From Eledone cirrhosa (lineage: Eukaryota), in assembly GCA_964016885.1 (NCBI GenBank), contig OZ024743.1:62620001-62684000 (forward strand): a stretch of 64,000 bases of DNA, written 5' to 3'. The notes beneath the pieces were generated by a model. The model saw nothing but the letters and a program-made list of their open reading frames with translations, searched no databases and was not told the DNA's origin. Both the position numbers and the translations under genes were made by a program. Numbering within the stretch: position 1 is the stretch's first letter; every line of letters begins with the position of its first letter. Positions 1 through 50,580 of this stretch are shown in pieces.

Positions 1-3000
1 CTTCGTAGATTAGATGGATGGCTGGAAAAATTGGAATCAGCTCTAGCGATACATTTTAGCAGAGAAGAATGGGAAAGTGTCTTATCTCTTCAATATTTTC
101 AGATTGAATGAATTAGGTTAAAGACAGGGTAGTAGCCTTAAAGAAGTGCATAGAGAGGGGGGTAGGAACTGAGGGTCGCATGGTAAATAACTGAGAGAGA
201 TACAATAGGATTAGAATACCGCATGGTAAATATCCAAGTTAATAAGTTAATACTACATCAGTAAAATTAATAATAACGTCATGAAAAACTACTAAGAGAA
301 ACCCTCGAAAATTTATTGCTAATACAGCAGGGAAAATTTAACGCTAATACAGCAGGGAACATCATAATATTAACGACAATATGTAGGCTAAAATACCTTC
401 GTAGATTAGATGGATGGCTGGAAAAATTGGAATCAGCTCTAGTGATACATTTTAGCAGAGAAGAATGGGAAAGTGTCTTATCTCTTCAATATTTTCAGAT
501 TGAATGAATTAGGTTAAAGACGGGGTAGTAGCCTTAAAGAAGTGCATAGAGAGGGGGGGTAGGAACTGAGGGTCGCATGGTAAATAACTGAGAGAGATAC
601 AATAGGATTAGAATACCGCATGGTAATATCCAAGTTAATACTACATCAGTAAAATTAACAATAATAACGTCATGAAAAACTACTAAGAGAAACCCTCGAA
701 AATTTATTGCTAATACAGCAGGGAAAATTTAACGCTAATACAGCAGGGAAAATCATAATATTAACGACAATATGTAGGCTAAAATACCTTCGTAGATTAG
801 ATGGATGGCTGGAAAAATTGGAATCAGCTCTAGTGATACACTTTAGCAGAGAAGAATGGGAAAGTGTCTTATCTCTTCAATATTTTCAGATTGAATGAAT
901 TAGGTTAAAGACAGGGTAGTAGCCTTAAAGAAGTGCATAGAGAGGGGGGGTAGGAACTGAGGGTCGCATGGTAAATAACTGAGAGAGATACAATAGGATT
1001 AGAATACCGCATGGTAAATATCCAAGTTAATAAGTTAATACTACATCAGTAAAATTAACAATAATAACGTCATGAAAAACTACTAAGAGAAACCCTCGAA
1101 AATTTATCGCTAATACAGCAGGGAAAATTTAACGCTAATACAGCAGGGAACATCATAATATTAACGACAATATGTAGGCTAAAATACCTTCGTAGATTAG
1201 ATGGATGGCTGGAAAAATTGGAATCAGCTCTAGTGATACATTTTAGCAGAGAAGAATGGGAAAGTGTCTTATCTCTTCAATATTTTCAGATTGAATGAAT
1301 TAGGTTAAAGACAGGGGAGTAGCCTTAAAGAAGTGCATAGAGAGGGTGGGGGTAGGAACTGAGGGTCGCATGGTAAATAACTGAGAGAGATACAATAGGA
1401 TTAGAATACCGCATGGTAAATATCCAAGTTAATACTACATCAGTAAAATTAACAATAATAACGTCATGAAAAACTACTAAGAGAAACCCTCGAAAATTTA
1501 TTGCTAATACAGCAGGGAAAATTTAACGCTAATACAGCAGGGAACATCATAATATTAACGACAATATGTAGGCTAAAATACCTTCGTAGATTAGATGGAT
1601 GGCTGGAAAAATTGGAATCAGCTCTAGTGATACATTTTAGCAGAGAAGAATGGGAAAGTGTCTTATCTCTTCAATATTTTCAGATTGAATGAATTAGGTT
1701 AAAGACAGGGTAGTAGCCTTAAAGAAGTGCATAGAGAGGGGGGGGTAGGAACTGAGGGTCGCATGGTAAATAACTGAGAGAGATACAATAGGATTAGAAT
1801 ACCGCATGGTAAATATCCAAGTTAATAAGTTAATACTACATCAGTAAAATTAATAATAACGTCATGAAAAACTACTAAGAGAAACCCTCGAAAATTTATT
1901 GCTAATACAGCAGGGAAAATTTAACGCTAATACAGCAGGGAACATCATAATATTAACGACAATATGTAGGCTAAAATACCTTCGTAGATTAGATGGATGG
2001 CTGGAAAAATTGGAATCAGCTCTAGTGATACATTTTAGCAGAGAAGAATGGGAAAGTGTCTTATCTCTTCAATATTTTCAGATTGAATGAATTAGGTTAA
2101 AGACGGGGTAGTAGCCTTAAAGAAGTGCATAGAGAGGGGGGGTAGGAACTGAGGGTCGCATGGTAAATAACTGAGAGAGATACAATAGGATTAGAATACC
2201 GCATGGTAATATCCAAGTTAATACTACATCAGTAAAATTAACAATAATAACGTCATGAAAAACTACTAAGAGAAACCCTCGAAAATTTATTGCTAATACA
2301 GCAGGGAAAATTTAACGCTAATACAGCAGGGAACATCATAATATTAACGACAATATGTAAGCTAAAATACCTTCGTAGATTAGATGGATGGCTGGAAAAA
2401 TTGGAATCAGCTCTAGTGATACATTTTAGCAGAGAAGAATGGGAAAGTGTCTTATCTCTTCAATATTTTCAGATTGAATGAATTAGGTTAAAGACAGGGT
2501 AGTAGCCTTAAAGAAGTGCATAGAGAGGGGGGTAGGAACTGAGGGTCGCATGGTAAATAACTGAGAGAGATACAATAGGATTAGAATACCGCATGGTAAA
2601 TATCCAAGTTAATAAGTTAATACTACATCAGTAAAATTAACAATAATAACGTCATGAAAAACTACTAAGAGAAACCCTCGAAAATTTATCGCTAATACAG
2701 CAGGGAAAATTTAACGCTAATACAGCAGGGAACATCATAATATTAACGACAATATGTAGGCTAAAATACCTTCGTAGATTAGATGGATGGCTGGAAAAAT
2801 TGGAATCAGCTCTAGTGATACATTTTAGCAGAGAAGAATGGGAAAGTGTCTTATCTCTTCAATATTTTCAGATTGAATGAATTAGGTTAAAGACAGGGGT
2901 AGTAGCCTTAAAGAAGTGCATAGAGAGGGGGGTAGGAACTGAGGGTCGCATGGTAAATAACTGAGAGAGATACAATAGGATTAGAATACCGCATGGTAAT

Positions 3001-6000
3001 ATCCAAGTTAATACTACATCAGTAAAATTAACAATAATAACGTCATGAAAAACTACTAAGAGAAACTCTCGAAAATTTATTGCTAATACAGCAGGGAAAA
3101 TTTAACGCTAATACAGCAGGGAACATCATAATATTAACGACAATATGTAAGCTAAAATACCTTCGTAGATTAGATGGATGGCTGGAAAAATTGGAATCAG
3201 CTCTAGTGATACATTTTAGCAGAGAAGAATGGGAAAGTGTCTTATCTCTTCAATATTTTCAGATTGAATGAATTAGGTTAAAGACAGGGTAGTAGCCTTA
3301 AAGAAGTGCATAGAGAGGGGGGGTAGGAACTGAGGGTCGCATGGTAAATAACTGAGAGAGATACAATAGGATTAGAATACCGCATGGTAAATATCCAAGT
3401 TAATAAGTTAATACTACATCAGTAAAATTAACAATAATAACGTCATGAAAAACTACTAAGAGAAACCCTCGAAAATTTATCGCTAATACAGCAGGGAAAA
3501 TTTAACGCTAATACAGCAGGGAACATCATAATATTAACGACAATATGTAGGCTAAAATACCTTCGTAGATTAGATGGATGGCTGGAAAAATTGGAATCAG
3601 CTCTAGTGATACATTTTAGCAGAGAAGAATGGGAAAGTGTCTTATCTCTTCAATATTTTCAGATTGAATGAATTAGGTTAAAGACAGGGGAGTAGCCTTA
3701 AAGAAGTGCATAGAGAGGGTGGGGGTAGGAACTGAGGGTCGCATGGTAAATAACTGAGAGAGATACAATAGGATTAGAATACCGCATGGTAAATATCCAA
3801 GTTAATACTACATCAGTAAAATTAACAATAATAACGTCATGAAAAACTACTAAGAGAAACCCTCGAAAATTTATTGCTAATACAGCAGGGAAAATTTAAC
3901 GCTAATACAGCAGGGAACATCATAATATTAACGACAATATGTAGGCTAAAATACCTTCGTAGATTAGATGGATGGCTGGAAAAATTGGAATCAGCTCTAG
4001 TGATACATTTTAGCAGAGAAGAATGGGAAAGTGTCTTATCTCTTCAATATTTTCAGATTGAATGAATTAGGTTAAAGACAGGGTAGTAGCCTTAAAGAAG
4101 TGCATAGAGAGGGGGGGGTAGGAACTGAGGGTCGCATGGTAAATAACTGAGAGAGATACAATAGGATTAGAATACCGCATGGTAAATATCCAAGTTAATA
4201 AGTTAATACTACATCAGTAAAATTAATAATAACGTCATGAAAAACTACTAAGAGAAACCCTCGAAAATTTATTGCTAATACAGCAGGGAAAATTTAACGC
4301 TAATACAGCAGGGAACATCATAATATTAACGACAATATGTAGGCTAAAATACCTTCGTAGATTAGATGGATGGCTGGAAAAATTGGAATCAGCTCTAGTG
4401 ATACATTTTAGCAGAGAAGAATGGGAAAGTGTCTTATCTCTTCAATATTTTCAGATTGAATGAATTAGGTTAAAGACGGGGTAGTAGCCTTAAAGAAGTG
4501 CATAGAGAGGGGGGGTAGGAACTGAGGGTCGCATGGTAAATAACTGAGAGAGATACAATAGGATTAGAATACCGCATGGTAATATCCAAGTTAATACTAC
4601 ATCAGTAAAATTAACAATAATAACGTCATGAAAAACTACTAAGAGAAACCCTCGAAAATTTATTGCTAATACAGCAGGGAAAATTTAACGCTAATACAGC
4701 AGGGAACATCATAATATTAACGACAATATGTAGGCTAAAATACCTTCGTAGATTAGATGGATGGCTGGAAAAATTGGAATCAGCTCTAGTGATACATTTT
4801 AGCAGAGAAGAATGGGAAAGTGTCTTATCTCTTCAATATTTTCAGATTGAATGAATTAGGTTAAAGACAGGGTAGTAGCCTTAAATAAGTGCATAGAGAG
4901 AGGGGGTAGGAACTGAGGGTCGCATGGTAAATAACTGAGAGAGATACAATAGGATTAGAATACCGCATGGTAAATATCCAAGTTAATACTACATCAGTAA
5001 AATTAACAATAATAACGTCATGAAAAACTACTAAGAGAAACCCTCGAAAATGTATTGCTAATACAGCAGGGAAAATTTAACGCTAATACAGCAGGGAAAA
5101 TCATAATATTAACGACAATATGTAGGCTAAAATACCTTCGTAGATTAGATGGAGGGCTGGAAAAATTGGAATCAGCTCTAGTGATACATTTTAGCAGAGA
5201 AGAATGGGAAAGTGTCTTATCTCTTCAATATTTTCAGATTGAATGAATTAGGTTAAAGACGGGGTAGTAGCCTTAAAGAAGTGCATAGAGAGGGGGGGTA
5301 GGAACTGAGGGTCGCATGGTAAATAACTGAGAGAGATACAATAGGATTAGAATACCGCATGGTAATATCCAAGTTAATACTACATCAGTAAAATTAACAA
5401 TAATAACGTCATGAAAAACTACTAAGAGAAACCCTCGAAAATTTATTGCTAATACAGCAGGGAAAATTTAACGCTAATACAGCAGGGAACATCATAATAT
5501 TAACGACAATATGTAAGCTAAAATACCTTCGTAGATTAGATGGATGGCTGGAAAAATTGGAATCAGCTCTAGTGATACATTTTAGCAGAGAAGAATGGGA
5601 AAGTGTCTTATCTCTTCAATATTTTCAGATTGAATGAATTAGGTTAAAGACAGGGTAGTAGCCTTAAAGAAGTGCATAGAGAGGGGGGGTAGGAACTGAG
5701 GGTCGCATGGTAAATAACTGAGAGAGATACAATAGGATTAGAATACCGCATGGTAAATATCCAAGTTAATAAGTTAATACTACATCAGTAAAATTAACAA
5801 TAATAACGTCATGAAAAACTACTAAGAGAAACCCTCGAAAATTTATCGCTAAATCAGCAGGGAAAATTTAACGCTAATACAGCAGGGAACATCATAATAT
5901 TAACGACAATATGTAGGCTAAAATACCTTCGTAGATTAGATGGATGGCTGGAAAAATTGGAATCAGCTCTAGTGATACATTTTAGCAGAGAAGAATGGGA

Positions 6001-9000
6001 AAGTGTCTTATCTCTTCAATATTTTCAGATTGAATGAATTAGGTTAAAGACAGGGGAGTAGCCTTAAAGAAGTGCATAGAGAGGGTGGGGGTAGGAACTG
6101 AGGGTCGCATGGTAAATAACTGAGAGAGATACAATAGGATTAGAATACCGCATGGTAAATATCCAAGTTAATACTACATCAGTAAAATTAACAATAATAA
6201 CGTCATGAAAAACTACTAAGAGAAACCCTCGAAAATTTATTGCTAATACAGCAGGGAAAATTTAACGCTAATACAGCAGGGAACATCATAATATTAACGA
6301 CAATATGTAGGCTAAAATACCTTCGTAGATTAGATGGATGGCTGGAAAAATTGGAATCAGCTCTAGCGATACATTTTAGCAGAGAAGAATGGGAAAGTGT
6401 CTTATCTCTTCAATATTTTCAGATTGAATGAATTAGGTTAAAGACAGGGTAGTAGCCTTAAAGAAGTGCATAGAGAGGGGGGTAGGAACTGAGGGTCGCA
6501 TGGTAAATAACTGAGAGAGATACAATAGGATTAGAATACCGCATGGTAAATATCCAAGTTAATAAGTTAATACTACATCAGTAAAATTAATAATAACGTC
6601 ATGAAAAACTACTAAGAGAAACCCTCGAAAATTTATTGCTAATACAGCAGGGAAAATTTAACGCTAATACAGCAGGGAACATCATAATATTAACGACAAT
6701 ATGTAGGCTAAAATACCTTCGTAGATTAGATGGATGGCTGGAAAAATTGGAATCAGCTCTAGTGATACATTTTAGCAGAGAAGAATGGGAAAGTGTCTTA
6801 TCTCTTCAATATTTTCAGATTGAATGAATTAGGTTAAAGACGGGGTAGTAGCCTTAAAGAAGTGCATAGAGAGGGGGGGTAGGAACTGAGGGTCGCATGG
6901 TAAATAACTGAGAGAGATACAATAGGATTAGAATACCGCATGGTAATATCCAAGTTAATACTACATCAGTAAAATTAACAATAATAACGTCATGAAAAAC
7001 TACTAAGAGAAACCCTCGAAAATTTATTGCTAATACAGCAGGGAAAATTTAACGCTAATACAGCAGGGAAAATCATAATATTAACGACAATATGTAGGCT
7101 AAAATACCTTCGTAGATTAGATGGATGGCTGGAAAAATTGGAATCAGCTCTAGTGATACACTTTAGCAGAGAAGAATGGGAAAGTGTCTTATCTCTTCAA
7201 TATTTTCAGATTGAATGAATTAGGTTAAAGACAGGGTAGTAGCCTTAAAGAAGTGCATAGAGAGGGGGGGTAGGAACTGAGGGTCGCATGGTAAATAACT
7301 GAGAGAGATACAATAGGATTAGAATACCGCATGGTAAATATCCAAGTTAATAAGTTAATACTACATCAGTAAAATTAACAATAATAACGTCATGAAAAAC
7401 TACTAAGAGAAACCCTCGAAAATTTATCGCTAATACAGCAGGGAAAATTTAACGCTAATACAGCAGGGAACATCATAATATTAACGACAATATGTAGGCT
7501 AAAATACCTTCGTAGATTAGATGGATGGCTGGAAAAATTGGAATCAGCTCTAGTGATACATTTTAGCAGAGAAGAATGGGAAAGTGTCTTATCTCTTCAA
7601 TATTTTCAGATTGAATGAATTAGGTTAAAGACAGGGGAGTAGCCTTAAAGAAGTGCATAGAGAGGGTGGGGGTAGGAACTGAGGGTCGCATGGTAAATAA
7701 CTGAGAGAGATACAATAGGATTAGAATACCGCATGGTAAATATCCAAGTTAATACTACATCAGTAAAATTAACAATAATAACGTCATGAAAAACTACTAA
7801 GAGAAACCCTCGAAAATTTATTGCTAATACAGCAGGGAAAATTTAACGCTAATACAGCAGGGAACATCATAATATTAACGACAATATGTAGGCTAAAATA
7901 CCTTCGTAGATTAGATGGATGGCTGGAAAAATTGGAATCAGCTCTAGTGATACATTTTAGCAGAGAAGAATGGGAAAGTGTCTTATCTCTTCAATATTTT
8001 CAGATTGAATGAATTAGGTTAAAGACAGGGTAGTAGCCTTAAAGAAGTGCATAGAGAGGGGGGGTAGGAACTGAGGGTCGCATGGTAAATAACTGAGAGA
8101 GATACAATAGGATTAGAATACCGCATGGTAAATATCCAAGTTAATAAGTTAATACTACATCAGTAAAATTAATAATAACGTCATGAAAAACTACTAAGAG
8201 AAACCCTCGAAAATTTATTGCTAATACAGCAGGGAAAATTTAACGCTAATACAGCAGGGAACATCATAATATTAACGACAATATGTAGGCTAAAATACCT
8301 TCGTAGATTAGATGGATGGCTGGAAAAATTGGAATCAGCTCTAGTGATACATTTTAGCAGAGAAGAATGGGAAAGTGTCTTATCTCTTCAATATTTTCAG
8401 ATTGAATGAATTAGGTTAAAGACGGGGTAGTAGCCTTAAAGAAGTGCATAGAGAGGGGGGGTAGGAACTGAGGGTCGCATGGTAAATAACTGAGAGAGAT
8501 ACAATAGGATTAGAATACCGCATGGTAATATCCAAGTTAATACTACATCAGTAAAATTAACAATAATAACGTCATGAAAAACTACTAAGAGAAACCCTCG
8601 AAAATTTATTGCTAATACAGCAGGGAAAATTTAACGCTAATACAGCAGGGAAAATCATAATATTAACGACAATATGTAGGCTAAAATACCTTCGTAGATT
8701 AGATGGATGGCTGGAAAAATTGGAATCAGCTCTAGTGATACACTTTAGCAGAGAAGAATGGGAAAGTGTCTTATCTCTTCAATATTTTCAGATTGAATGA
8801 ATTAGGTTAAAGACGGGGTAGTAGCCTTAAAGAAGTGCATAGAGAGGGGGGGTAGGAACTGAGGGTCGCATGGTAAATAACTGAGAGAGATACAATAGGA
8901 TTAGAATACCGCATGGTAAATATCCAAGTTAATAAGTTAATACTACATCAGTAAAATTAACAATAATAACGTCATGAAAAACTACTAAGAGAAACCCTCG

Positions 9001-12000
9001 AAAATTTATTGCTAATACAGCAGGGAAAATTTAACGCTAATACAGCAGGGAACATCATAATATTAACGACAATATGTAGGCTAAAATACCTTCGTAGATT
9101 AGATGGATGGCTGGAAAAATTGGAATCAGCTCTAGTGATACATTTTAGCAGAGAAGAATGGGAAAGTGTCTTATCTCTTCAATATTTTCAGATTGAATGA
9201 ATTAGGTTAAAGACAGGGTAGTAGCCTTAAAGAAGTGCATAGAGAGGGGGGGTAGGAACTGAGGGTCGCATGGTAAATAACTGAGAGAGATACAATAGGA
9301 TTAGAATACCGCATGGTAAATATCCAAGTTAATACTACATCAGTAAAATTAACAATAATAACGTCATGAAAAACTACTAAGAGAAACCCTCGAAAATTTA
9401 TTGCTAATACAGCAGGGAAAATTTAACGCTAATACAGCAGGGAACATCATAATATTAACGACAATATGTAGGCTAAAATACCTTCGTAGATTAGATGGAT
9501 GGCTGGAAAAATTGGAATCAGCTCTAGTGATACATTTTAGCAGAGAAGAATGGGAAAGTGTCTTATCTCTTCAATATTTTCAGATTGAATGAATTAGGTT
9601 AAAGACAGGGTAGTAGCCTTAAAGAAGTGCATAGAGAGGGGGGTAGGAACTGAGGGTCGCATGGTAAATAACTGAGAGAGATACAATAGGATTAGAATAC
9701 CGCATGGTAAATATCCAAGTAAATAAGTTAATACTACATCAGTAAAATTAACAATAATAACGTCATGAAAAACTACTAAGAGAAACCCTCGAAAATTTAT
9801 CGCTAAATCAGCAGGGAAAATTTAACGCTAATACAGCAGGGAACATCATAATATTAACGACAATATGTAGGCTAAAATACCTTCGTAGATTAGATGGATG
9901 GCTGGAAAAATTGGAATCAGCTCTAGTGATACATTTTAGCAGAGAAGAATGGGAAAGTGTCTTATCTCTTCAATATTTTCAGATTGAATGAATTAGGTTA
10001 AAGACAGGGGAGTAGCCTTAAAGAAGTGCATAGAGAGGGTGGGGGTAGGAACTGAGGGTCGCATGGTAAATAACTGAGAGAGATACAATAGGATTAGAAT
10101 ACCGCATGGTAAATATCCAAGTTAATACTACATCAGTAAAATTAACAATAATAACGTCATGAAAAACTACTAAGAGAAACCCTCGAAAATTTATTGCTAA
10201 TACAGCAGGGAAAATTTAACGCTAATACAGCAGGGAACATCATAATATTAACGACAATATGTAGGCTAAAATACCTTCGTAGATTAGATGGATGGCTGGA
10301 AAAATTGGAATCAGCTCTAGCGATACATTTTAGCAGAGAAGAATGGGAAAGTGTCTTATCTCTTCAATATTTTCAGATTGAATGAATTAGGTTAAAGACA
10401 GGGTAGTAGCCTTAAAGAAGTGCATAGAGAGGGGGGTAGGAACTGAGGGTCGCATGGTAAATAACTGAGAGAGATACAATAGGATTAGAATACCGCATGG
10501 TAAATATCCAAGTTAATAAGTTAATACTACATCAGTAAAATTAATAATAACGTCATGAAAAACTACTAAGAGAAACCCTCGAAAATTTATTGCTAATACA
10601 GCAGGGAAAATTTAACGCTAATACAGCAGGGAACATCATAATATTAACGACAATATGTAGGCTAAAATACCTTCGTAGATTAGATGGATGGCTGGAAAAA
10701 TTGGAATCAGCTCTAGTGATACATTTTAGCAGAGAAGAATGGGAAAGTGTCTTATCTCTTCAATATTTTCAGATTGAATGAATTAGGTTAAAGACGGGGT
10801 AGTAGCCTTAAAGAAGTGCATAGAGAGGGGGGGGGTAGGAACTGAGGGTCGCATGGTAAATAACTGAGAGAGATACAATAGGATTAGAATACCGCATGGT
10901 AATATCCAAGTTAATACTACATCAGTAAAATTAACAATAATAACGTCATGAAAAACTACTAAGAGAAACCCTCGAAAATTTATTGCTAATACAGCAGGGA
11001 AAATTTAACGCTAATACAGCAGGGAAAATCATAATATTAACGACAATATGTAGGCTAAAATACCTTCGTAGATTAGATGGATGGCTGGAAAAATTGGAAT
11101 CAGCTCTAGTGATACACTTTAGCAGAGAAGAATGGGAAAGTGTCTTATCTCTTCAATATTTTCAGATTGAATGAATTAGGTTAAAGACAGGGTAGTAGCC
11201 TTAAAGAAGTGCATAGAGAGGGGGGGGTAGGAACTGAGGGTCGCATGGTAAATAACTGAGAGAGATACAATAGGATTAGAATACCGCATGGTAAATATCC
11301 AAGTTAATAAGTTAATACTACATCAGTAAAATTAACAATAATAACGTCATGAAAAACTACTAAGAGAAACCCTCGAAAATTTATTGCTAATACAGCAGGG
11401 AAAATTTAACGCTAATACAGCAGGGAACATCATAATATTAACGACAATATGTAAGCTAAAATACCTTCGTAGATTAGATGGATGGCTGGAAAAATTGGAA
11501 TCAGCTCTAGTGATACATTTTAGCAGAGAAGAATGGGAAAGTGTCTTATCTCTTCAATATTTTCAGATTGAATGAATTAGGTTAAAGACAGGGTAGTAGC
11601 CTTAAAGAAGTGCATAGAGAGGGGGGGGTAGGAACTGAGGGTCGCATGGTAAATTACTGAGAGAGATACAATAGGATTAGAATACCGCATGGTAAATATC
11701 CAAGTTAATAAGTTAATACTACATCAGTAAAATTAACAATAATAACGTCATGAAAAACTACTAATAGAAACCCTCGAAAATTTATTGCTAATACAGCAGG
11801 GAAAATTTAACGCTAATACAGCAGGGAACATCATAATATTAACGACAATATGTAGGCTAAAATACCTTCGTAGATTAGATGGATGGCTGGAAAAATTGGA
11901 ATCAGCTCTAGTGATACATTTTAGCAGAGAAGAATGGGAAAGTGTCTTATCTCTTCAATATTTTCAGATTGAATGAATTAGGTTAAAGACAGGGGAGTAG

Positions 12001-15000
12001 CCTTAAAGAAGTGCATAGAGAGGGTGGGGGTAGGAACTGAGGGTCGCATGGTAAATAACTGAGAGAGATACAATAGGATTAGAATACCGCATGGTAAATA
12101 TCCAAGTTAATACTACATCAGTAAAATTAACAATAATAACGTCATGAAAAACTACTAAGAGAAACCCTCGAAAATTTATTGCTAATACAGCAGGGAAAAT
12201 TTAACGCTAATACAGCAGGGAACATCATAATATTAACGACAATATGTAGGCTAAAATACCTTCGTAGATTAGATGGATGGCTGGAAAAATTGGAATCAGC
12301 TCTAGTGATACACTTTAGCAGAGAAGAATGGGAAAGTGTCTTATCTCTTCAATATTTTCAGATTGAATGAATTAGGTTAAAGACAGGGTAGTAGCCTTAA
12401 AGAAGTGCATAGAGAGGGGGGGGTAGGAACTGAGGGTCGCATGGTAAATAACTGAGAGAGATACAATAGGATTAGAATACCGCATGGTAAATATCCAAGT
12501 TAATAAGTTAATACTACATCAGTAAAATTAACAATAATAACGTCATGAAAAACTACTAAGAGAAACCCTCGAAAATTTATTGCTAATACAGCAGGGAAAA
12601 TTTAACGCTAATACAGCAGGGAAAATCATAATATTAACGACAATATGTAGGCTAAAATACCTTCGTAGATTAGATGGATGGCTGGAAAAATTGGAATCAG
12701 CTCTAGTGATACACTTTAGCAGAGAAGAATGGGAAAGTGTCTTATCTCTTCAATATTTTCAGATTGAATGAATTAGGTTAAAGACAGGGTAGTAGCCTTA
12801 AAGAAGTGCATAGAGAGGGGGGGTAGGAACTGAGGGTCGCATGGTAAATAACTGAGAGAGATACAATAGGATTAGAATACCGCATGGTAAATATCCAAGT
12901 TAATAAGTTAATACTACATCAGTAAAATTAACAATAATAACGTCATGAAAAACTACTAAGAGAAACCCTCGAAAATTTATTGCTAATACAGCAGGGAAAA
13001 TTTAACGCTAATACAGCAGGGAAAATCATAATATTAACGACAATATGTAGGCTAAAATACCTTCGTAGATTAGATGGATGGCTGGAAAAATTGGAATCAG
13101 CTCTAGTGATACACTTTAGCAGAGAAGAATGGGAAAGTGTCTTATCTCTTCAATATTTTCAGATTGAATGAATTAGGTTAAAGACAGGGTAGTAGCCTTA
13201 AAGAAGTGCATAGAGAGGGGGGGGTAGGAACTGAGGGTCGCATGGTAAATAACTGAGAGAGATACAATAGGATTAGAATACCGCATGGTAAATATCCAAG
13301 TTAATAAGTTAATACTACATCAGTAAAATTAACAATAATAACGTCATGAAAAACTACTAAGAGAAACCCTCGAAAATTTATTGCTAATACAGCAGGGAAA
13401 ATTTAACGCTAATACAGCAGGGAACATCATAATATTAACGACAATATGTAAGCTAAAATACCTTCGTAGATTAGATGGATGGCTGGAAAAATTGGAATCA
13501 GCTCTAGTGATACATTTTAGCAGAGAAGAATGGGAAAGTGTCTTATCTCTTCAATATTTTCAGATTGAATGAATTAGGTTAAAGACAGGGTAGTAGCCTT
13601 AAAGAAGTGCATAGAGAGGGGGGGGTAGGAACTGAGGGTCGCATGGTAAATTACTGAGAGAGATACAATAGGATTAGAATACCGCATGGTAAATATCCAA
13701 GTTAATAAGTTAATACTACATCAGTAAAATTAACAATAATAACGTCATGAAAAACTACTAATAGAAACCCTCGAAAATTTATTGCTAATACAGCAGGGAA
13801 AATTTAACGCTAATACAGCAGGGAACATCATAATATTAACGACAATATGTAGGCTAAAATACCTTCGTAGATTAGATGGATGGCTGGAAAAATTGGAATC
13901 AGCTCTAGTGATACATTTTAGCAGAGAAGAATGGGAAAGTGTCTTATCTCTTCAATATTTTCAGATTGAATGAATTAGGTTAAAGACAGGGGAGTAGCCT
14001 TAAAGAAGTGCATAGAGAGGGTGGGGGTAGGAACTGAGGGTCGCATGGTAAATAACTGAGAGAGATACAATAGGATTAGAATACCGCATGGTAAATATCC
14101 AAGTTAATACTACATCAGTAAAATTAACAATAATAACGTCATGAAAAACTACTAAGAGAAACCCTCGAAAATTTATTGCTAATACAGCAGGGAAAATTTA
14201 ACGCTAATACAGCAGGGAACATCATAATATTAACGACAATATGTAGGCTAAAATACCTTCGTAGATTAGATGGATGGCTGGAAAAATTGGAATCAGCTCT
14301 AGTGATACATTTTAGCAGAGAAGAATGGGAAAGTGTCTTATCTCTTCAATATTTTCAGATTGAATGAATTAGGTTAAAGACAGGGTAGTAGCCTTAAAGA
14401 AGTGCATAGAGAGGGGGGTAGGAACTGAGGGTCGCATGGTAAATAACTGAGAGAGATACAATAGGATTAGAATACCGCATGGTAAATATCCAAGTTAATA
14501 AGTTAATACTACATCAGTAAAATTAACAATAATAACGTCATGAAAAACTACTAAGAGAAACCCTCGAAAATTTATTGCTAATACAGCAGGGAAAATTTAA
14601 CGCTAATACAGCAGGGAACATCATAATATTAACGACAATATGTAGGCTAAAATACCTTCGTAGATTAGATGGATGGCTGGAAAAATTGGAATCAGCTCTA
14701 GTGATACATTTTAGCAGAGAAGAATGGGAAAGTGTCTTATCTCTTCAATATTTTCAGATTGAATGAATTAGGTTAAAGACAGGGTAGTAGCCTTAAAGAA
14801 GTGCATAGAGAGGGGGGTAGGAACTGAGGGTCGCATGGTAAATAACTGAGAGAGATACAATAGGATTAGAATACCGCATGGTAAATATCCAAGTTAATAA
14901 GTTAATACTACATCAGTAAAATTAACAATAATAACGTCATGAAAAACTACTAAGAGAAACCCTCGAAAATTTATTGCTAATACAGCAGGGAAAATTTAAC

Positions 15001-18000
15001 GCTAATACAGCAGGGAACATCATAATATTAACGACAATATGTAGGCTAAAATACCTTCGTAGATTAGATGGATGGCTGGAAAAATTGGAATCAGCTCTAG
15101 TGATACATTTTAGCAGAGAAGAATGGGAAAGTGTCTTATCTCTTCAATATTTTCAGATTGAATGAATTAGGTTAAAGACAGGGGAGTAGCCTTAAAGAAG
15201 TGCATAGAGAGGGTGGGGGTAGGAACTGAGGGTCGCATGGTAAATAACTGAGAGAGATACAATAGGATTAGAATACCGCATGGTAAATATCCAAGTTAAT
15301 ACTACATCAGTAAAATTAACAATAATAACGTCATGAAAAACTACTAAGAGAAACCCTCGAAAATTTATTGCTAATACAGCAGGGAAAATTTAACGCTAAT
15401 ACAGCAGGGAACATCATAATATTAACGACAATATGTAGGCTAAAATACCTTCGTAGATTAGATGGATGGCTGGAAAAATTGGAATCAGCTCTAGTGATAC
15501 ATTTTAGCAGAGAAGAATGGGAAAGTGTCTTATCTCTTCAATATTTTCAGATTGAATGAATTAGGTTAAAGACAGGGTAGTAGCCTTAAAGAAGTGCATA
15601 GAGAGGGGGGTAGGAACTGAGGGTCGCATGGTAAATAACTGAGAGAGATACAATAGGATTAGAATACCGCATGGTAAATATCCAAGTTAATAAGTTAATA
15701 CTACATCAGTAAAATTAACAATAATAACGTCATGAAAAACTACTAAGAGAAACCCTCGAAAATTTATTGCTAATACAGCAGGGAAAATTTAACGCTAATA
15801 CAGCAGGGAACATCATAATATTAACGACAATATGTAGGCTAAAATACCTTCGTAGATTAGATGGATGGCTGGAAAAATTGGAATCAGCTCTAGTGATACA
15901 TTTCAGCAGAGAAGAATGGGAAAGTGTCTTATCTCTTCAATATTTTCAGATTGAATGAATTAGGTTAAAGACAGGGTAGTAGCCTTAAAGAAGTGCATAG
16001 AGAGGGGGGTAGGAACTGAGGGTCGCATGGTAAATAACTGAGAGAGATACAATAGGATTAGAATACCGCATGGTAAATATCCAAGTTAATAAGTTAATAC
16101 TACATCAGTAAAATTAACAATAATAACGTCATGAAAAACTACTAAGAGAAACCCTCGAAAATTTATTGCTAATACAGCAGGGAAAATTTAACGCTAATAC
16201 AGCAGGGAACATCATAATATTAACGACAATATGTAGGCTAAAATACCTTCGTAGATTAGATGGATGGCTGGAAAAATTGGAATCAGCTCTAGTGATACAT
16301 TTTAGCAGAGAAGAATGGGAAAGTGTCTTATCTCTTCAATATTTTCAGATTGAATGAATTAGGTTAAAGACAGGGTAGTAGCCTTAAAGAAGTGCATAGA
16401 GAGGGGGGGTAGGAACTGAGGGTCGCATGGTAAATAACTGAGAGAGATACAATAGGATTAGAATACCGCATGGTAAATATCCAAGTTAATACTACATCAG
16501 TAAAATTAACAATAATAACGTCATGAAAAACTACTAAGAGAAACCCTCGAAAATTTATTGCTAATACAGCAGGGAAAATTTAACGCTAATACAGCAGGGA
16601 ACATCATAATATTAACGACAATATGTAGGCTAAAATACCTTCGTAGATTAGATGGATGGCTGGAAAAATTGGAATCAGCTCTAGTGATACATTTTAGCAG
16701 AGAAGAATGGGAAAGTGTCTTATCTCTTCAATATTTTCGGATTGAATGAATTAGGTTAAAGACAGGGTAGTAGCCTTAAAGAAGTGCATAGAGAGGGGGG
16801 TAGGAACTGAGGGTCGCATGGTAAATAACTGAGAGAGATACAATAGGATTAGAATACCGCATGGTAAATATCCAAGTTAATAAGTTAATACTACATCAGT
16901 AAAATTAACAATAATAACGTCATGAAAAACTACTAAGAGAAACCCTCGAAAATGTATTGCTAATACAGCAGGGAAAATTTAACGCTAATACAGCAGGGAA
17001 AATCATAATATTAACGACAATATGTAGGCTAAAATACCTTCGTAGATTAGATGGAGGGCTGGAAAAATTGGAATCAGCTCTAGTGATACATTTTAGCAGA
17101 GAAGAATGGGAAAGTGTCTTATCTCTTCAATATTTTCAGATTGAATGAATTAGGTTAAAGACAGGGTAGTAGCCTTAAAGAAGTGCATAGAGAGGGGGGT
17201 AGGAACTGAGGGTCGCATGGTAAATAACTGGGAGAGATACAATAGGATTAGAATACCGCATGGTAAATATCCAAGTTAATAAGTTAATACTACATCAGTA
17301 AAATTAACAATAATAACGTCATGAAAAACTACTAAGAGAAACCCTCGAAAATTTATTGCTAATACAGCAGGGAAAATTTAACGCTAATACAGCAGGGAAC
17401 ATCATAATATTAACGACAATATGTAGGCTAAAATACCTTCGTAGATTAGATGGATGGCTGGAAAAATTGGAATCAGCTCTAGTGATACATTTTAGCAGAG
17501 AAGAATGGGAAAGTGTCTTATCTCTTCAATATTTTCAGATTGAATGAATTAGGTTAAAGACAGGGTAGTAGCCTTAAAGAAGTGCATAGAGAGGGGGGTA
17601 GGAACTGAGGGTCGCATGGTAAATAACTGAGAGAGATACAATAGGATTAGAATACCGCATGGTAAATATCCAAGTTAATAAGTTAATACTACATCAGTAA
17701 AATTAACAATAATAACGTCATGAAAAACTACTAAGAGAAACCCTCGAAAATTTATCGCTAATACAGCAGGGAAAATTTAACGCTAATACAGCAGGGAACA
17801 TCATAATATTAACGACAATATGTAGGCTAAAATACCTTCGTAGATTAGATGGATGGCTGGAAAAATTGGAATCAGCTCTAGTGATACATTTTAGCAGAGA
17901 AGAATGGGAAAGTGTCTTATCTCTTCAATATTTTCAGATTGAATGAATTAGGTTAAAGACAGGGGAGTAGCCTTAAAGAAGTGCATAGAGAGGGTGGGGG

Positions 18001-20387
18001 TAGGAACTGAGGGTCGCATGGTAAATAACTGAGAGAGATACAATAGGATTAGAATACCGCATGGTAAATATCCAAGTTAATACTACATCAGTAAAATTAA
18101 CAATAATAACGTCATGAAAAGCTACTAAGAGAAACCCTCGAAAATTTATTGCTAATACAGCAGGGAAAATTTAACGCTAATACAGCAGGGAACATCATAA
18201 TATTAACGACAATATGTAGGCTAAATTACCTTCGTAGATTAGATGGATGGCTGGAAAAATTGGAATCAGCTCTAGTGATACATTTTAGCAGAGAAGAATG
18301 GGAAAGTGTCTTATCTCTTCAATATTTTCAGATTGAATGAATTAGGTTAAAGACAGGGTAGTAGCCTTAAAGAAGTGCATAGAGAGGGGGGTAGGAACTG
18401 AGGGTCGCATGGTAAATAACTGAGAGAGATACAATAGGATTAGAATACCGCATGGTAAATATCCAAGTTAATACTACATCAGTAAAATTAACAATAATAA
18501 CGTCATGAAAAACTACTAAGAGAAACCCTCGAAAATTTATTGCTAATACAGCAGGGAAAATTTAACGCTAATACAGCAGGGAACATCATAATATTCACGA
18601 CAATATGTAGGCTAAAATACCTTCGTAGATTAGATGGATGGCTGGAAAAATTGGAATCAGCTCTAGTGATACACTTTAGCAGAGAAGAATGGGAAAGTGT
18701 CTTATCTCTTCAATATTTTCAGATTGAATGAATTAGGTTAAAGACAGGGTAGTAGCCTTAAAGAAGTGCATAGAGAGGGGGGGTAGGAACTGAGGGTCGC
18801 ATGGTAAATAACTGAGAGAGATACAATAGGATTAGAATACCGCATGGTAAATATCCAAGTTAATAAGTTAATACTACATCAGTAAAATTAACAATAATAA
18901 CGTCATGAAAAACTACTAAGAGAAACCCTCGAAAATTTATCGCTAATACAGCAGGGAAAATTTAACGCTAATACAGCAGGGAACATCATAATATTAACGA
19001 CAATATGTAGGCTAAAATACCTTCGTAGATTAGATGGATGGCTGGAAAAATTGGAATCAGCTCTAGTGATACATTTTAGCAGAGAAGAATGGCAAAGTGT
19101 CTTATCTCTTCAATATTTTCAGATTGAATGAATTAGGTTAAAGACAGGGTAGTAGCCTTAAATAAGTGCATAGAGAGGGGGGGTAGGAACTGAGGGTCGC
19201 ATGGTAAATAACTGAGAGAGATACAATAGGATTAGAATACCGCATGGTAAATATCCAAGTTAATACTACATCAGTAAAATTAACAATAATAACGTCATGA
19301 AAAACTACTAAGAGAAACCCTCGAAAATTTATTGCTAATACAGCAGGGAAAATTTAACGCTAATACAGCAGGGAACATCATAATATTAACGACAATATGT
19401 AGGCTAAAATACCTTCGTAGATTAGATGGATGGCTGGAAAAATTGGAATCAGCTCTAGTGATACATTTTAGCAGAGAAGAATGGGAAAGTGTCTTATCTC
19501 TTCAATATTTTCAGATTGAATGAATTAGGTTAAAGACAGGGTAGTAGCCTTAAAGAAGTGCATAGAGAGGGGGGTATGAACTGAGGGTCGCATGGTAAAT
19601 AACTGAGAGAGATACAATAGGATTAGAATACCGCATGGTAAATATCCAAGTTAATAAGTTAATACTACATCAGTAAAATTAACAATAATAACGTCATGAA
19701 AAACTACTAAGAGAAACCCTCGAAAATTTATTGCTAATACAGCAGGGAAAATTTAACGCTAATACAGCAGGGAAAATCATAATATTAACGACAATATGTA
19801 GGCTAAAATACCTTCGTAGATTAGATGGATGGCTGGAAAAATTGGAATCAGCTCTAGTGATACATTTTAGCAGAGAAGAATGGGAAAGTGTCTTATCTCT
19901 TCAATATTTTCAGATTGAATGAATTAGGTTAAAGACAGGGTAGTAGCCTTAAAGAAGTGCATAGAGAGGGGGGGTAGGAACTGAGGGTCGCATGGTAAAT
20001 ACCTGAGAGAGATACAATACGATCAGAATACCGCATGGTAAATATCCAAGTTAATAAGTTAATACTACATCAGTAAAATTAACAATAATAACGTCATGAA
20101 AAACTACTAAGAGAAACCCTCGAAAATTTATCGCTAATACAGCAGGGAAAATTTAACGCTAATACATCAGGGAACATCATAATATTAACGACAATATGTA
20201 GGCTAAATTACCTTCGTAGATTAGATGGATGGCTGGAAAAATTGGAATCAGCTCTAGTGATACATTTTAGCAGAGAAGAATGGGAAAGTGTCTTATCTCT
20301 TCAATATTTTCAGATTGAATGAATTAGGTTAAAGACAGGGTAGTAGCCTTAAAGAAGTGCATAGAGAGGGGGGTAGGAACTGAGGGT
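1..20387. repeat. Satellite array, ~391-401-bp monomer, ~51.5 copies, open at the left window edge
   Basis: The same monomer recurs every 391-401 bp (starts at 316, 707, 1107, 1501 ... 19731, 20130). Length varies with a G-run, an optional aagttaat duplication and an optional aac. Internal subrepeats are gctaatacagcagggaa x2 and cgcatggtaaata x2. Confidence 0.99.
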
Positions 20388-20389
20388 AG

Positions 20390-20480
20390 TTTCCCTGCTG
20401 TATTAGCGATAAATTTTCGAGGGTTTCATTTAGTAGTTTTTCATGACGTTATTATTGTTAATTTTACTGATGTAGTATTA
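20390..20480 (-). repeat. Inverted partial satellite monomer terminating the array
   Basis: tttccctgctgtattagcgataaattttcgaggg...actgatgtagtatta is the reverse complement of the monomer segment taatactacatcagt...cagcagggaaa. Confidence 0.97.
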
Positions 20481-22954: not shown

Positions 22955-23530
22955 GATGAAATTAGAACAGACTCAGCTGCTGGACCTGATGGATTCTCAG
23001 CAGTTCTCTTAAAAACATGTAAGCGGGCCTTAGCAACTCCACTGAAGATGCTTTTCAGAAGCTTCTTGGCTAGCGGTGTACTACCCAGGGAGCTGAAAGA
23101 AGGCACAATATGCCCTATCCATAAAGGTGGTAGCAGAGCGGAGGCCAAAAACTATAGGCCAGTCTCCCTGACGTCGCATATCAGTAAGGTCATGGAGCGA
23201 GTCGTCAGAAAGAAACTGATCACTTTCCTCGAGGAAAATGACCGCCTGACTAGCACGCAGCATGGCTTCCGCCCAGGAAGAAGCTGCCTTACACAGCTGC
23301 TACATCACTACGACTGGGTACTGAAACAACTACTAGACAGCTCACATGTGGACGTGATATATCTTGACTTTGCGAAGGCCTTTGACAAGGTCGACCACGG
23401 AATGATATGTCACAAACTACACGGACTCGGCATAACTGGAAAAGTAGGTGAGTGGCTGCAAGACTTCCTAAAGGACAGAAGCCAGACAGTCGCAGCAAAT
23501 GGGGCCCTCTGAAAGGAAACACCAATAACA
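22955..23530 (+). mobile_element. CR1/L2 (Jockey-group) LINE reverse transcriptase fragment
   Basis: Motifs AGPDG, PIHKGG, NYRPVSLTS, QHGFRPGRSC and YLDFAKAFDKVDH. Truncated at both ends. Confidence 0.9.
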
Positions 23531-23531
23531 A

Positions 23532-24632
23532 GTGCGCTATTACTTTTTCTGTGACCTTCATGACTTGGTCAATTAATTTAATGCCTCTATAGTTTCCCCT
23601 ATCTAGGGCATCTCCTTTACCCTTGTAGCAGTTAATGATGATGCTGCTACGCCAGTCCTTTGGTACGCCCCATTCTGTATAACTTGGTTTACTATCCGGG
23701 TGACCATGGTGTGTCCCACCGTTCCAGATGCTTTCAGCATTTCAGCAACTATTTCCGAAGGCCTAGCCGCCTTTCCTGTCTTCATATCTTTAATTACCTT
23801 ACTTATTATACTACATTCAACTTGCACTGCTGGTCCCTCTATTGGATCGATGTGGGGGAGACTGTCTTTCTCCCATTTATTCTCCTCATTTAGTAGCCTT
23901 TCGTAGTGACACTTCCAAGCTACGTTCTTATCAGCGTCAGTGATGGCAAGTACACCATCATCATTACTGACACACTTCTCCCCAACAATATCATGGTTCT
24001 CCTTGACACATTGTCTAGCAATCCTGAACACCTACGTTTTTGGTTCTCGCGTTGTAGAACATGCTTGAACTTTCTTTCCTCTGCTTCCCTTCTTGTGAAG
24101 TACACTTGTCTCCTAGCTTCCCTCCTGGCCACTTGATAGTCTTCTCTACTTCCCCCATCCCGCCATATTTTCCAAGCCTGCTTTTTGGCCTTAATTGACT
24201 CCTCCACCTTACTATTCCACCACCACGTTACTCTCCTCCTGCCTATAGGCCTGCTCCAGCCACAGACATCATCTGCCGCCTTCAGCAGGTTAGCTTTCAG
24301 GAATTCCCACTGTTCCTCTATATTGTACGACTCTAATTGCTCTTCCTTACTGTCAAAAGCATCAAGTAATATGCTTTTAAATTTATTACTGGCTGTGGGG
24401 TCCTTTAACTTCCATATTTTTCTCCTAAGGATAGTCCTCTTCTGTTGTCGAATATGTCTCGTCCTGACTATGAGGTCGCTAACTATGAGGCTATGTTGGG
24501 AGGTGCATTCTTCATGGAGGGATTTAGTGTTTACAACAGACACTCTGTCTCGTTTTCTGGTAAGGATATAATCTATCTGACTGGCGTGTTCCCCTAATCT
24601 ATAGGTGATCAAGTGATTGTCTCGTTTTTTGA
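23532..24632 (-). mobile_element. RTE LINE fragment (endonuclease end, linker, RT start)
   Basis: Motifs SQIDYIL, TWWWN and MKTGKA. 23535-23840 closely matches 53085-53390. Frameshifted. Confidence 0.9.
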
Positions 24633-24663
24633 AATGTATATATATGTGTATGTATATATATAT

Positions 24664-25721: not shown

Positions 25722-26452
25722 ATGTCTTTACCATGCTGGCCAGTATGACTGCCTCTAACTGTCTCTACGAAGTCGTCTACTCCCTTCGGAATCCTAACAT
25801 TTTGCCTTGTCTATTATAGGTATTCGTATCGGTTTATTTCGCCGAAATACCCTGAGATGCTATAGGCCATGATGACTACGCTCTCTCTCTCTCTAAGCCA
25901 CCTATCCCCTACCTATTACCTCCCCTTCTCTTCCATTCATCCCTCACTCATCTTGAGGTTCTTGAAGAGATAAGACACACTTGATTCTGAAAGGCTAAAA
26001 TGAATCACTAGAACTGCTAAACCATGTCCTAGCCATCCATATATGTCTTTCACCTATCCCTCTATTTCCCAATTGCAACTGTTCCACTCACACTATTATT
26101 AGTATTATTGTTGTATTTATCATTTCACTAGCCTCCACAACACATATTTATTTTTTTACCCTCGTTTTTTCCCATGCTGGCCAGTATGACTGTCTCTGCG
26201 AAGTCATCTACTCCCTTCCTCTCTCTTACATTATTATTATTGTTGTATTTATCATTTCGCTGGCCCCTTCACAACACATATTTATTCTTTACCCTTGTCT
26301 TTACCATGCTGGTCAGTATGACTGTCTCTAACTGTCTCTACGAAGTCGTCTACTCCCTTCGAAATCCTAAGATTTTGCCTTGTCTAATATAGGTACTCGT
26401 ATCGGTTTATTTCGCTGAAATACGCTGAGATGCTATAGGCCATGATGGCTAC
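25722..26452 (+). mobile_element. Non-coding element with ~155-bp terminal direct repeats (period ~573 bp), related to the satellite monomer
   Basis: tgtctttaccatgctgg...gctataggccatgatg occurs at ~25723 and ~26296. The internal segment 25962-26040 matches the satellite minus strand in three blocks. Confidence 0.7.
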
Positions 26453-26769
26453 CTATCTCACAACCCCCCCCCCCCCTCACACCAATCAAATCTCAGCATC
26501 CCCACCCCACCCATCACCAACCCCAACAAACTCTGCCATTACTACTACTACCTCTCTCCTCACCCATCCCAGCCCCAACAAACCCTGCCATTATTACCAC
26601 CACCACTGTTCTTCTAGCCCTGAATTCTTCTACCCTTATGTATGGATGAGCTGAAAATAAATGGAACAACCCCGAATTAATAAATGAAAATGAATATGAA
26701 TCCGCGAGCTACCAAGCACCCATGCGAAGCTTCAATTCAGAGACAGGAAGCATAGACACACCCCTGCAA

Positions 26770-27222
26770 AAATTTACCTTTCCCACAAATGTTGACAAAT
26801 GCCCAAAACTCCGAGTTGGAACCATTAATGTAAGCACAATGAAAGGAAGGGCAGGAGAAATCGTAGAGATGCTAGAGCGAAAGAAAATTGATGTATGCTG
26901 TGTGCAAGAGACTAGATGGAGAGGAGAGTCTGCTAGAGTCCTTGTAGGCAGAAGGCAGTGCTACAAATTTTTCTGGGTGAGAAATGACGATGGGATGGGT
27001 GGTGTAGGTATCCTACTAGCTGACAAATGGGTAGATAAGGTAATCTCAGTGAACAGGGTGAATGCAAGAATCATTAAACTCAGACTAGTCATGAATAAAA
27101 CAATTGCCACAATAATATCAGCTTACGCACCCCAATCGGAGTTGCCAGACGAACTTAGAGATAGGTTTTACTGCTCTAACAAACGTCAATGACTTCCTAA
27201 CTATTGCAGGAGATTTTAACGG
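26770..27222 (+). mobile_element. RTE LINE APE endonuclease fragment
   Basis: Motifs RVGTINV, DVCCVQETRW, GVGILL and IISAYAPQ, followed by a frameshifted AGDFNG. Confidence 0.9.

Positions 27223-50548: not shown

Positions 50549-50580
<32 letters not shown>

What the first reader, a model, noticed from the sequence alone, without database searches (positions are those of the whole stretch)
25962..26040. Three spaced conserved blocks shared between the satellite monomer and a dispersed direct-repeat element
Seen: the satellite minus strand reads TTGAAGAGATAAGACAC-N16-GCTAAAATGtATCACTAGAgCTG-N14-AGCCATCCAT. This locus reads TTGAAGAGATAAGACAC-N15-GCTAAAATGaATCACTAGAaCTG-N14-AGCCATCCAT. The blocks match at 17/17, 21/23 and 10/10 while the spacers are largely divergent. 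Both elements also share tttaccatgc, tctacgaag and an upstream C-rich tract. Inference: conserved blocks with free spacers indicate a selected cis-element, such as an unrecognised structured or catalytic RNA, an internal promoter or an RT-recognition signal. I found no canonical hammerhead in either element, so this motif could be what processes the monomer.
Basis: partly seen in the sequence, partly recalled or inferred. Interest (0 to 1): 0.85.

Follow-up and report, generated by a model that had tools for sequence, protein, structure and literature searches.

The report
LINE leader repeats with shunt-like layout
The 'satellite' and the dispersed repeat are both 5'-leader repeat units of one LINE retrotransposon lineage, and their shared blocks contain a likely internal promoter, a conserved three-codon mini-ORF and one arm of a predicted long-range RNA stem, a layout that would let ribosomes jump over the long, AUG-rich leader as in some viruses.

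Summary
The three blocks are real, but they are homologous parts of one retrotransposon. The 'satellite' is a 66-unit tandem 5' UTR that runs into an intact 1039-aa endonuclease-reverse transcriptase ORF just left of the window. The dispersed element is the 5' UTR of an older subfamily. 'Conserved blocks, free spacers' holds only for this pair: between older subfamilies blocks A and B change and spacer 1 does not. No ribozyme was found, and 5' ends are scattered.

Three features do persist across 16 subfamily consensuses:
- an AUG-x-x-stop mini-ORF in block B;
- a predicted stem pairing block C with the AUG cluster 400-750 nt downstream, with double-sided changes, and with a counterpart in a sister family about 70% identical in protein;
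- an Inr-to-DPE-like spacing in block A (13 of 16).

My best reading is that each unit is an internal promoter followed by a caulimovirus/foamy-virus-type ribosome-shunt take-off site. The identity is shown (about 0.97). The stem is predicted (about 0.75). Promoter and shunt are inferred and untested (about 0.5 and 0.4). My searches found no report of a shunt in a non-LTR element.

The parts
1..20387 (-). 51 of 66 tandem ~397-nt 5' UTR units of a young LINE copy. The array goes on ~5.7 kb left of the window into a ~260-nt unique leader, an intact 1039-aa APE-RT-PHD ORF (L091:920-4039, minus) and a (GAT)n tail in a (TA)n tract
20390..20480 (+). Inverted piece of a unit at the 5' end of the array, as expected from twin-primed LINE insertion (mechanism inferred)
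20225..20304 (-). Blocks A, B, C in the 5'-most unit of the array
25723..26460 (+). 5' UTR repeat region (about 1.3 units) of an older-subfamily copy of the same LINE
25944..25949 (+). Predicted initiator, with the predicted +1 at 25946
   Evidence: spacing to the invariant AGACA in 13 of 16 subfamily consensuses; inferred, no RNA 5' end data
25962..25978 (+). Block A, predicted downstream core promoter (+17 to +33), with DPE-like AGACA at 25973-25977 (+28 to +32)
   Evidence: DPE position from PMC4748587 passages
26000..26011 (+). Three-codon upstream ORF (Met-Asn-His-stop) inside block B (25994-26016), A at -3
   Evidence: kept as AUG-x-x-stop in 16 of 16 subfamily consensuses
26012..26050 (+). 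5' arm of the predicted long-range stem: end of block B, spacer 2, block C (26031-26040) and the bases after it
26482..26486 (+). CCAAT motif in the unique leader, also present in the sister family
   Evidence: NF-Y role recalled, untested
26637..26668 (+). 3' arm of the predicted stem, holding the first AUG cluster of the unique leader
26684..27222 (+). Start of the LINE ORF (endonuclease domain), frameshifted and cut off at its 3' side in this copy

Best explanation
The blocks are the head of the 5' UTR repeat unit of an RTE-type LINE, where block A likely acts as an internal Inr/DPE promoter, block B holds a conserved three-codon upstream ORF, and block C is the 5' arm of a predicted long-range stem that would let ribosomes shunt past the AUG-rich leader to the main ORF. 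Shown: both elements are UTR units upstream of the same APE-RT ORF, the units occur in 1 to 66 copies, the mini-ORF frame is kept, and the two arms stay complementary while both change. Inferred: Pol II starts 16 nt before block A. The ribosome meets the mini-ORF first (about +55), stops next to the stem base, skips the looped 300-600 nt with its 3 to 11 AUGs, lands on an A/U-rich stretch and starts at the main AUG, 7-27 nt after the stem in 15 of 16 consensuses. In a tandem array any unit's arm could pair with the single 3' arm, which would explain why long arrays are tolerated. Odds: identity 0.97, selected stem 0.75, selected mini-ORF 0.6, promoter in block A 0.5, shunting as the mechanism 0.4.
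For: Identity: the array runs into an intact ORF with RVT_1, Exo_endo_phos and PHD domains. The ORF follows the last motif copy in 40 of 42 listed loci that have 900 nt or more behind it, some of them overlapping. Mini-ORF: AUG-x-x-stop in 16 of 16 consensuses with six different peptides, a TAA/TAG exchange, and A at -3 kept even where neighbouring bases change. It is the first AUG after the predicted +1 in 15 of 16; the 16th has an extra in-frame AUG ending at the same stop. Private mutations in 78 copies hit AUG, middle and stop in proportion to length (6/11/7), so the site is not immutable. Stem: unguided RNAalifold on 21 copies over 973 columns returns it as the only helix above 3 bp, with both sides changed at two pairs (CG3/UG2/UA15 and AU10/CU4/CG7) plus one single-copy case. 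93% of cells pair against 20-51% when slid. Arms beat shuffles in 16 of 16 consensuses (z -3.2 to -6.6). It forms in 20 of 26 whole-leader folds. Own-partner pairing ranks 1 of 720 (core, 6 hand-picked types) and 32 of 5040 (full arms). The sister family has a different sequence with the same pairing (9 of 15 copies at 2 or fewer of 100 shuffles) and an AUG-stop before it. Promoter: AGACA at exactly +28 to +32 from a pyrimidine-C-A start in 13 of 16 consensuses, while spacer 1 varies from 12 to 18 nt.
Against: No RNA 5' ends, structure probing or translation data exist; the runs laid were contigs of unknown type. Subfamilies form one ladder, so permutation and shuffle numbers overstate independence: there are about three independent double-sided events. 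The stem core is a (CCAT)n/(ATGG)n repeat. Its lower part (spacer 2) shows no own-partner preference (820 of 5040). The copy at this locus does not form the stem in its whole-leader fold. Stop-to-stem distance ranges from -17 to +14 nt, against 6-8 nt in CaMV, RTBV and RTSV. The sister family's upstream ORF is only AUG-stop, and its predicted duplex reaches over the main AUG in 4 of 5 copies. Two loci share a mutated mini-ORF AUG in their last unit, and 8 of 66 array units have GTG. 5' ends are not significantly enriched at the predicted +1 (6 of 46 against 2.9 expected, p=0.065). No stem signal in 19 distant relatives at about 37-56% protein identity.
Confidence: 0.45

Rival explanations
1. 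The stem is real and selected but does not drive a shunt. It masks the first AUG cluster as a translation brake or switch, or folds the leader for RNP assembly or 5'-end template switching, and the mini-ORF only dampens scanning.
For: The stem covers AUGs directly; in the sister family and in one subfamily the covered AUG is in frame with the main ORF. Stop-to-stem distance is loose.
Against: It does not explain why a three-codon ORF is kept just before the 5' arm in every subfamily, nor how 3-11 looped AUGs are passed.
Confidence: 0.22
2. The blocks have little function. The UTR unit evolves fast and patchily, possibly under pressure from host repressors, so the blocks are just the parts that did not change between these two subfamilies. 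Arm complementarity comes from low-complexity repeats and template switching by the reverse transcriptase.
For: Block divergence is not below synonymous divergence, and A and B change at about 25% in the older half of the lineage. Propagated variants of B exist. The core is a tetranucleotide repeat.
Against: All eight propagated changes I counted in the 12-nt mini-ORF outside the one AUG loss keep its frame. The two compensated pairs pass through an intermediate state (UG or CU) instead of being copied in one step. The pairing survives in a family with a different arm sequence.
Confidence: 0.18
3. The looped region is an intron. A donor-like site just after block C is spliced to an acceptor-like site about 25 nt before the 3' arm, removing the upstream AUGs for translation, while unspliced RNA transposes, as in Penelope.
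For: G|GTAT follows block C in nearly all subfamilies, and a pyrimidine tract ending in TAG is conserved before the 3' arm. Penelope has a promoter-proximal intron (PMC2377424 passages).
Against: No intron-less genomic copy turned up among the loci I read.
Confidence: 0.1
4. The blocks form an unknown self-cleaving ribozyme that processes the monomer.
For: RTE and other non-LTR leaders carry HDV-like or twister ribozymes (search listing; RTE detail recalled). Tandem units are typical of retrozymes.
Against: No Rfam hit, no hammerhead core, no conserved local fold, no fixed 5' end, and the putative core bases change between subfamilies.
Confidence: 0.04

Closest known systems
RTE-clade LINEs, e.g. 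RTE-2_OV (PMC9115989, passages)
   Same: Single ORF with AP endonuclease and RT, about 600-nt 5' UTR, microsatellite 3' end, many 5'-truncated copies
   Different: This ORF has a PHD finger after the RT core, where RTE-2_OV has a C2H2 finger. The passages I read mention no tandem UTR units, uORF or stem. Clade name here rests on architecture, not on a tree with named references.
Mouse L1 5' UTR monomers (bioRxiv 2022.08.06.500894, passages)
   Same: Variable number of tandem units upstream of a unique region; arrays shorten on insertion and can expand by recombination or template switching; units change fast between subfamilies
   Different: Units are ~400-570 nt rather than ~200 nt and arrays reach 66 units. 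The YY1 core GCCATCTT is not matched (block C reads GCCATCCA). Each unit here carries a mini-ORF and a stem arm. Promoter activity is untested.
Inr/DPE internal promoters of jockey, Doc, F, G, I, SART1, TRAS1, Penelope and L1Tc Pr77 (PMC4748587, PMC2377424, passages)
   Same: A DPE-type pentamer at +28 to +32 from a pyrimidine-C-A start inside the element
   Different: Here it sits in every tandem unit, and the start site is predicted, not mapped
Short-ORF-dependent ribosome shunt of CaMV, RTBV, RTSV and prototype foamy virus (PMC5902531 section 6 and passages; PMC2761275, PMC2241666 passages)
   Same: 5'-proximal short ORF of unconserved peptide ending next to a basal stem whose arm sequences can change, many AUGs looped out, an A/U-rich stretch and the main AUG after the stem
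   Different: Host is an animal non-LTR retrotransposon. The 5' arm is repeated in tandem against one 3' arm. The loop is not a conserved hairpin, the stop-to-stem distance is variable, and there is no functional test.

Membership tests
RTE-clade LINE | Single ORF with AP endonuclease and RT, no ORF1 | tested here: met
   only short upstream ORFs in the leader
RTE-clade LINE | Microsatellite 3' tail, 5' truncations and inversions | tested here: met
   (GAT)n tail; scattered 5' ends; inversion
RTE-clade LINE | RT tree groups it with named RTE elements | not tested
   none of the 120 listed homologues carried a clade name; assignment from recalled architecture
RTE-clade LINE | Target-site duplication | tested here: inconclusive
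   both flanks are (TA)n tracts
L1-type monomeric promoter array | Tandem units in variable number upstream of a unique 5' UTR part | tested here: met
L1-type monomeric promoter array | Each unit adds promoter activity | not testable with these tools
   needs reporter assays
L1-type monomeric promoter array | 5' ends cluster near the internal start site | tested here: inconclusive
   6 of 46 against 2.9 expected, p=0.065; by eye, 9 older copies begin between about -5 and +10
Inr/DPE core promoter | DPE pentamer at +28 to +32 from the initiator A | tested here: met
   13 of 16 consensuses, 3 are one base off; by eye, met in one of two sister-family types
Inr/DPE core promoter | Mapped start site and DPE dependence | not testable with these tools
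   no raw RNA reads served
Short-ORF-dependent ribosome shunt | 5'-proximal short ORF with free peptide | tested here: met
   16 of 16 consensuses; 5'-proximal only if the predicted +1 is right
Short-ORF-dependent ribosome shunt | Stop codon a few nt before the basal stem | tested here: inconclusive
   -17 to +14 nt, most often -3 to +7
Short-ORF-dependent ribosome shunt | Stable basal stem joining the two ends of the leader | tested here: met
   predicted only:
Short-ORF-dependent ribosome shunt | A/U-rich landing stretch, then the main start codon | tested here: met
   main AUG 7-27 nt after the stem in 15 of 16 consensuses; not clean in the sister family
Short-ORF-dependent ribosome shunt | Cap-dependent, non-linear scanning shown by reporter mutants | not testable with these tools
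   bench test
Self-cleaving ribozyme (hammerhead, HDV-like, twister) | Family core and fold | tested here: not met
Self-cleaving ribozyme (hammerhead, HDV-like, twister) | Fixed 5' end at the cleavage site | tested here: not met
Free-standing satellite DNA | Arrays independent of a transposon body | tested here: not met
   40 of 42 rows end in the LINE ORF; a 16-unit higher-order repeat shows satellite-like expansion of this one array

The most novel reading that the evidence does not exclude
An animal non-LTR retrotransposon uses a caulimovirus-type short-ORF-plus-stem ribosome shunt, built into a tandem promoter unit. Each unit supplies its own start site, mini-ORF and stem arm, so the element can stack promoters up to multi-kilobase, satellite-like arrays without blocking translation of its single ORF.
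Probability: 0.35. Interest if true: 0.8.

Novelty: new variant of a known kind. Interest (0 to 1): 0.6.

Why it matters
How single-ORF LINEs with long, AUG-rich leaders translate their ORF is poorly known (my recall); HDV-like ribozymes and stop-start coupling are the described routes. This lineage offers a fully specified, cheap test: a 12-nt mini-ORF, two arms and natural compensatory variants across 16 subfamilies. If it holds, short-ORF shunting extends from pararetroviruses and foamy viruses to LINEs. Independently of that, it shows mouse-L1-like promoter arrays in an RTE-type element and a 26-kb satellite-like array growing out of a LINE leader, which repeat annotators would mislabel as satellite.

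Tried and rejected
Ribozyme: rejected.

Relic coding origin: tblastx against two Penelope-like pieces gave only the unit's own tail and hits at E 0.2 or worse; blastx against the fetched RT homologues gave nothing. An antisense reading frame across the blocks breaks because spacer lengths vary.

Blocks A and B in other RTE-type families of the genome: no convincing match in the 30 sister-family loci (16 reach the ORF start). A third, older family gave 6 loci with ORF starts and no visible blocks.

Structure in A or B: no consistent partner across subfamilies. A small A/spacer-1 hairpin appears only in the oldest and youngest subfamilies.

Distant relatives: 20 of 80 metagenome loci tried, 1 too short, 19 tested, best 1 of 25 shuffles; their UTRs may be incomplete.

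Expression and splicing: only Logan contigs were served, most of unknown type; no splice joint was seen, which says nothing either way.

Automatic 5'-end mapping was confused by (TA)n flanks, so ends were read by hand.

Pair counts on alignment A2 come from my own script.

Earlier findings of the scan: none.

Full report
Observation. The three blocks are at 25962, 25994 and 26031 as described, and recur on the minus strand of the array at 1-20387 (blastn 70/101, E 3e-11). The two-block pattern with a free spacer has 878 exact matches in the 3.0-Gb genome and 0 for the reversed control. Rfam gives 69 matches in the window, all below gathering score and none at the locus or in the array.

What the two elements are. 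The array continues about 5.7 kb left of the window and runs into a short unique leader, an intact ORF and a (GAT)n tail within a (TA)n tract. The 1039-aa protein has RVT_1, Exo_endo_phos and PHD domains. The array has 66 units with a 16-unit higher-order repeat, which points to expansion at the DNA level, and an inverted piece at its 5' end. Elsewhere the same unit occurs in arrays of one to more than twenty copies that end at the same 3' position and start at varied 5' positions. In 40 of the 42 listed loci with 900 nt or more behind the last motif, the same ORF follows; some loci overlap, and the two exceptions are interrupted by other elements. The element at 25723-27222 is the leader and ORF start of an older subfamily. 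There are 1702 matches to the family's ORF-start pattern. Of 30 ORF-anchored loci I could read 24, because the output was cut: 11 reach the blocks and have them, and 13 end before them. The clade name RTE rests on recalled architecture; the resemblance of the genome to octopus is also recalled and comes from no call.

Are the blocks conserved? I sorted 78 copies by hand into 16 subfamilies forming a ladder. Copies differ from their consensus by about 3% in this locus's subfamily and 0.2% in the array's. Between these two, the ORF differs at 34/690 sites (synonymous 21/153), blocks at 2/50, spacers at 10/15 and 8/14. So blocks are not significantly below neutral (Fisher p=0.07; against fourfold sites p=0.71); it is the spacers that run fast. 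Between the oldest subfamily and this one, A differs at 4/16 plus a gap, B at 6/23 and spacer 1 at 0/15 plus 3 gap columns, with synonymous divergence 14/152. The block-and-spacer picture is therefore specific to one comparison.

What persists, 1: a mini-ORF. Block B contains AUG-x-x-stop in 16 of 16 consensuses (MDY, MNY, MNQ, MNH, MYH; MYQ in two further copies), with A at -3. By my count eight propagated changes fall in the two middle codons or swap TAA and TAG. One propagated change removes the AUG, in the last unit of two neighbouring loci, one of which keeps an intact upstream unit. Private changes in the 78 copies hit AUG, middle and stop 6, 11 and 7 times. This contrast is suggestive, not significant on its own. 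In the 66-unit array 8 units have GTG. The sister family (about 70% protein identity) has AUG-stop at the matching place in 9 of the 10 copies where an arm-like match was found.

What persists, 2: a long-range stem. The best partner for the leader's first AUG cluster is block C in 16 of 18 copies. Unguided RNAalifold on 21 copies, from the predicted start to the ORF, returns this 16-bp stem and only two 3-bp helices besides, with nothing in A or B. Two pairs change on both sides through an intermediate: CG 3, UG 2, UA 15, and AU 10, CU 4, CG 7. Cells pair at 93% against 20-51% when slid by 1-4 columns; 0 of 2000 column shuffles reach it, though relatedness inflates that figure. Extended arms give 24-42 pairs and -24 to -45 kcal/mol, with z -3.2 to -6.6 against shuffles in 16 of 16. 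Own partners rank 1 of 720 for six hand-picked types and 32 of 5040 for full arms, but 820 of 5040 for the lower stem alone. Whole-leader folds show the stem in 20 of 26 copies, not in this locus's copy. In the sister family a different arm pairs the same way: 9 of 15 copies at 2 or fewer of 100 shuffles, two partial or weaker, four lacking the arm. No such signal was found in 19 distant relatives.

What persists, 3: promoter-like spacing. Placing the invariant AGACA of block A at +28 to +32 puts +1 on the A of a pyrimidine-C-A motif in 13 of 16 consensuses; three are one base off. That is the DPE position reported for insect non-LTR promoters (PMC4748587 passages; PMC2377424 passages). With this start the mini-ORF AUG, at +53 to +58, is the first AUG in 15 of 16. 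Genomic 5' ends give weak support: 6 of 46 hand-read ends of the youngest subfamilies lie at -11 to +14 against 2.9 expected (p=0.065), and other spots are as dense. By eye, nine older copies and two middle-aged ones begin between about -5 and +10, but microhomology with (TA)n targets could cause that.

Mechanism. A 5'-proximal short ORF of free peptide ending at a basal stem with exchangeable arms, followed by an A/U-rich landing stretch, is the shunt configuration defined for CaMV, RTBV and RTSV (PMC5902531, section 6 and passages; PMC2241666 passages) and for foamy virus (PMC2761275 passages). Here the loop holds 3-11 AUGs in 12 copies counted, and the main AUG follows 7-27 nt after the stem in 15 of 16 consensuses. 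I infer that each unit is a promoter plus take-off site and that any unit's arm can pair with the single 3' arm. The fit is imperfect: the stop-to-stem distance is -17 to +14 nt, and the sister family's upstream ORF is only AUG-stop. Rivals are a translation brake or packaging fold, neutral patchy evolution with template switching, an intron between a conserved donor-like site after block C and an acceptor-like site before the 3' arm, and a ribozyme; odds are given above. The sequencing runs served were contigs, mostly of unknown type, and decided nothing.

What is known. Tandem promoter units are known from mouse L1 (bioRxiv 2022.08.06.500894 passages). RTE elements are active in octopus (PMC9115989 and PMC13282606 passages); those passages mention no tandem UTR, uORF or stem. 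PMC6007223 passages cover RTE microsatellite tails. The shunt review credits non-LTR elements with termination-reinitiation, not shunting, in the passages I read. Searches for a shunt or long-range leader stem in LINEs and for RTE monomer arrays listed no such report, and I saw most of those papers only as listings. Searches were listings for ribozymes, L1 monomers, DPE and clade. The library lacks many subscription papers, Repbase and Dfam were not searchable, and I opened no supplements; the octopus repeat annotation's library may already hold this family.

Verdict. It is a new variant of a known kind, with a well-specified but untested shunt-like layout. Interest 0.6; 0.8 if shunting is shown.

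Noticed in passing
window 26041-26060 and equivalent sites in all subfamilies (alignment A2): A donor-like G|GTAT follows block C in nearly all subfamilies (mutated in this window copy), and an acceptor-like pyrimidine tract ending in TAG lies about 25 nt before the 3' arm
   Followed up: partly
window 26482-26486; L101, L108 unique leader: A CCAAT motif with the same flanks is shared by this family and its sister family at about 70% protein identity
   Followed up: no
L060:minus strand, after the last unit: A Penelope-like RT ORF with its own 5' inversion sits directly behind five units, apparently inserted into the array; related to the remnant at window 36168-37114
   Followed up: partly
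L286 and G000:C1:378.74-378.75 Mb; G000:C2:390.14 Mb; G000:C11:4.54 Mb: Other long arrays of the same unit (about 16 to more than 25 copies)
   Followed up: partly
L062, L266, L078: block A and spacer 1: Spacer 1 becomes complementary to block A in the younger subfamilies (up to 7 bp hairpin); a 5-bp version exists in the oldest and none in the middle ones
   Followed up: partly
L091:920-4039 minus, residues 777-820: PHD finger after the RT core; many of the 120 listed homologues have it too
   Followed up: no
window 48509-49471 +: Intron-less 320-aa ORF with a transmembrane-like start and a motif I recall as LicD-family nucleotidyltransferase
   Followed up: no
window 38538-39578 -: Open 346-aa ORF that looks like a Tc1/mariner transposase (recalled motifs)
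   Followed up: no
window 40872-43469 -: Broken gag-pol remnant of a gypsy-like LTR retrotransposon (recalled motifs)
   Followed up: no
window 55827-57001: 43-bp minisatellite (19 + 4 copies) interrupted by a short dispersed repeat at about 56650-56835
   Followed up: no
window 49742-51077: 315-nt, 98% inverted arms with a nested 192-nt pair, MITE-like
   Followed up: no
window 23433-24633 -, 46486-48099 -, 51728-53395 -: Pieces of sister and older RTE-type families
   Followed up: partly
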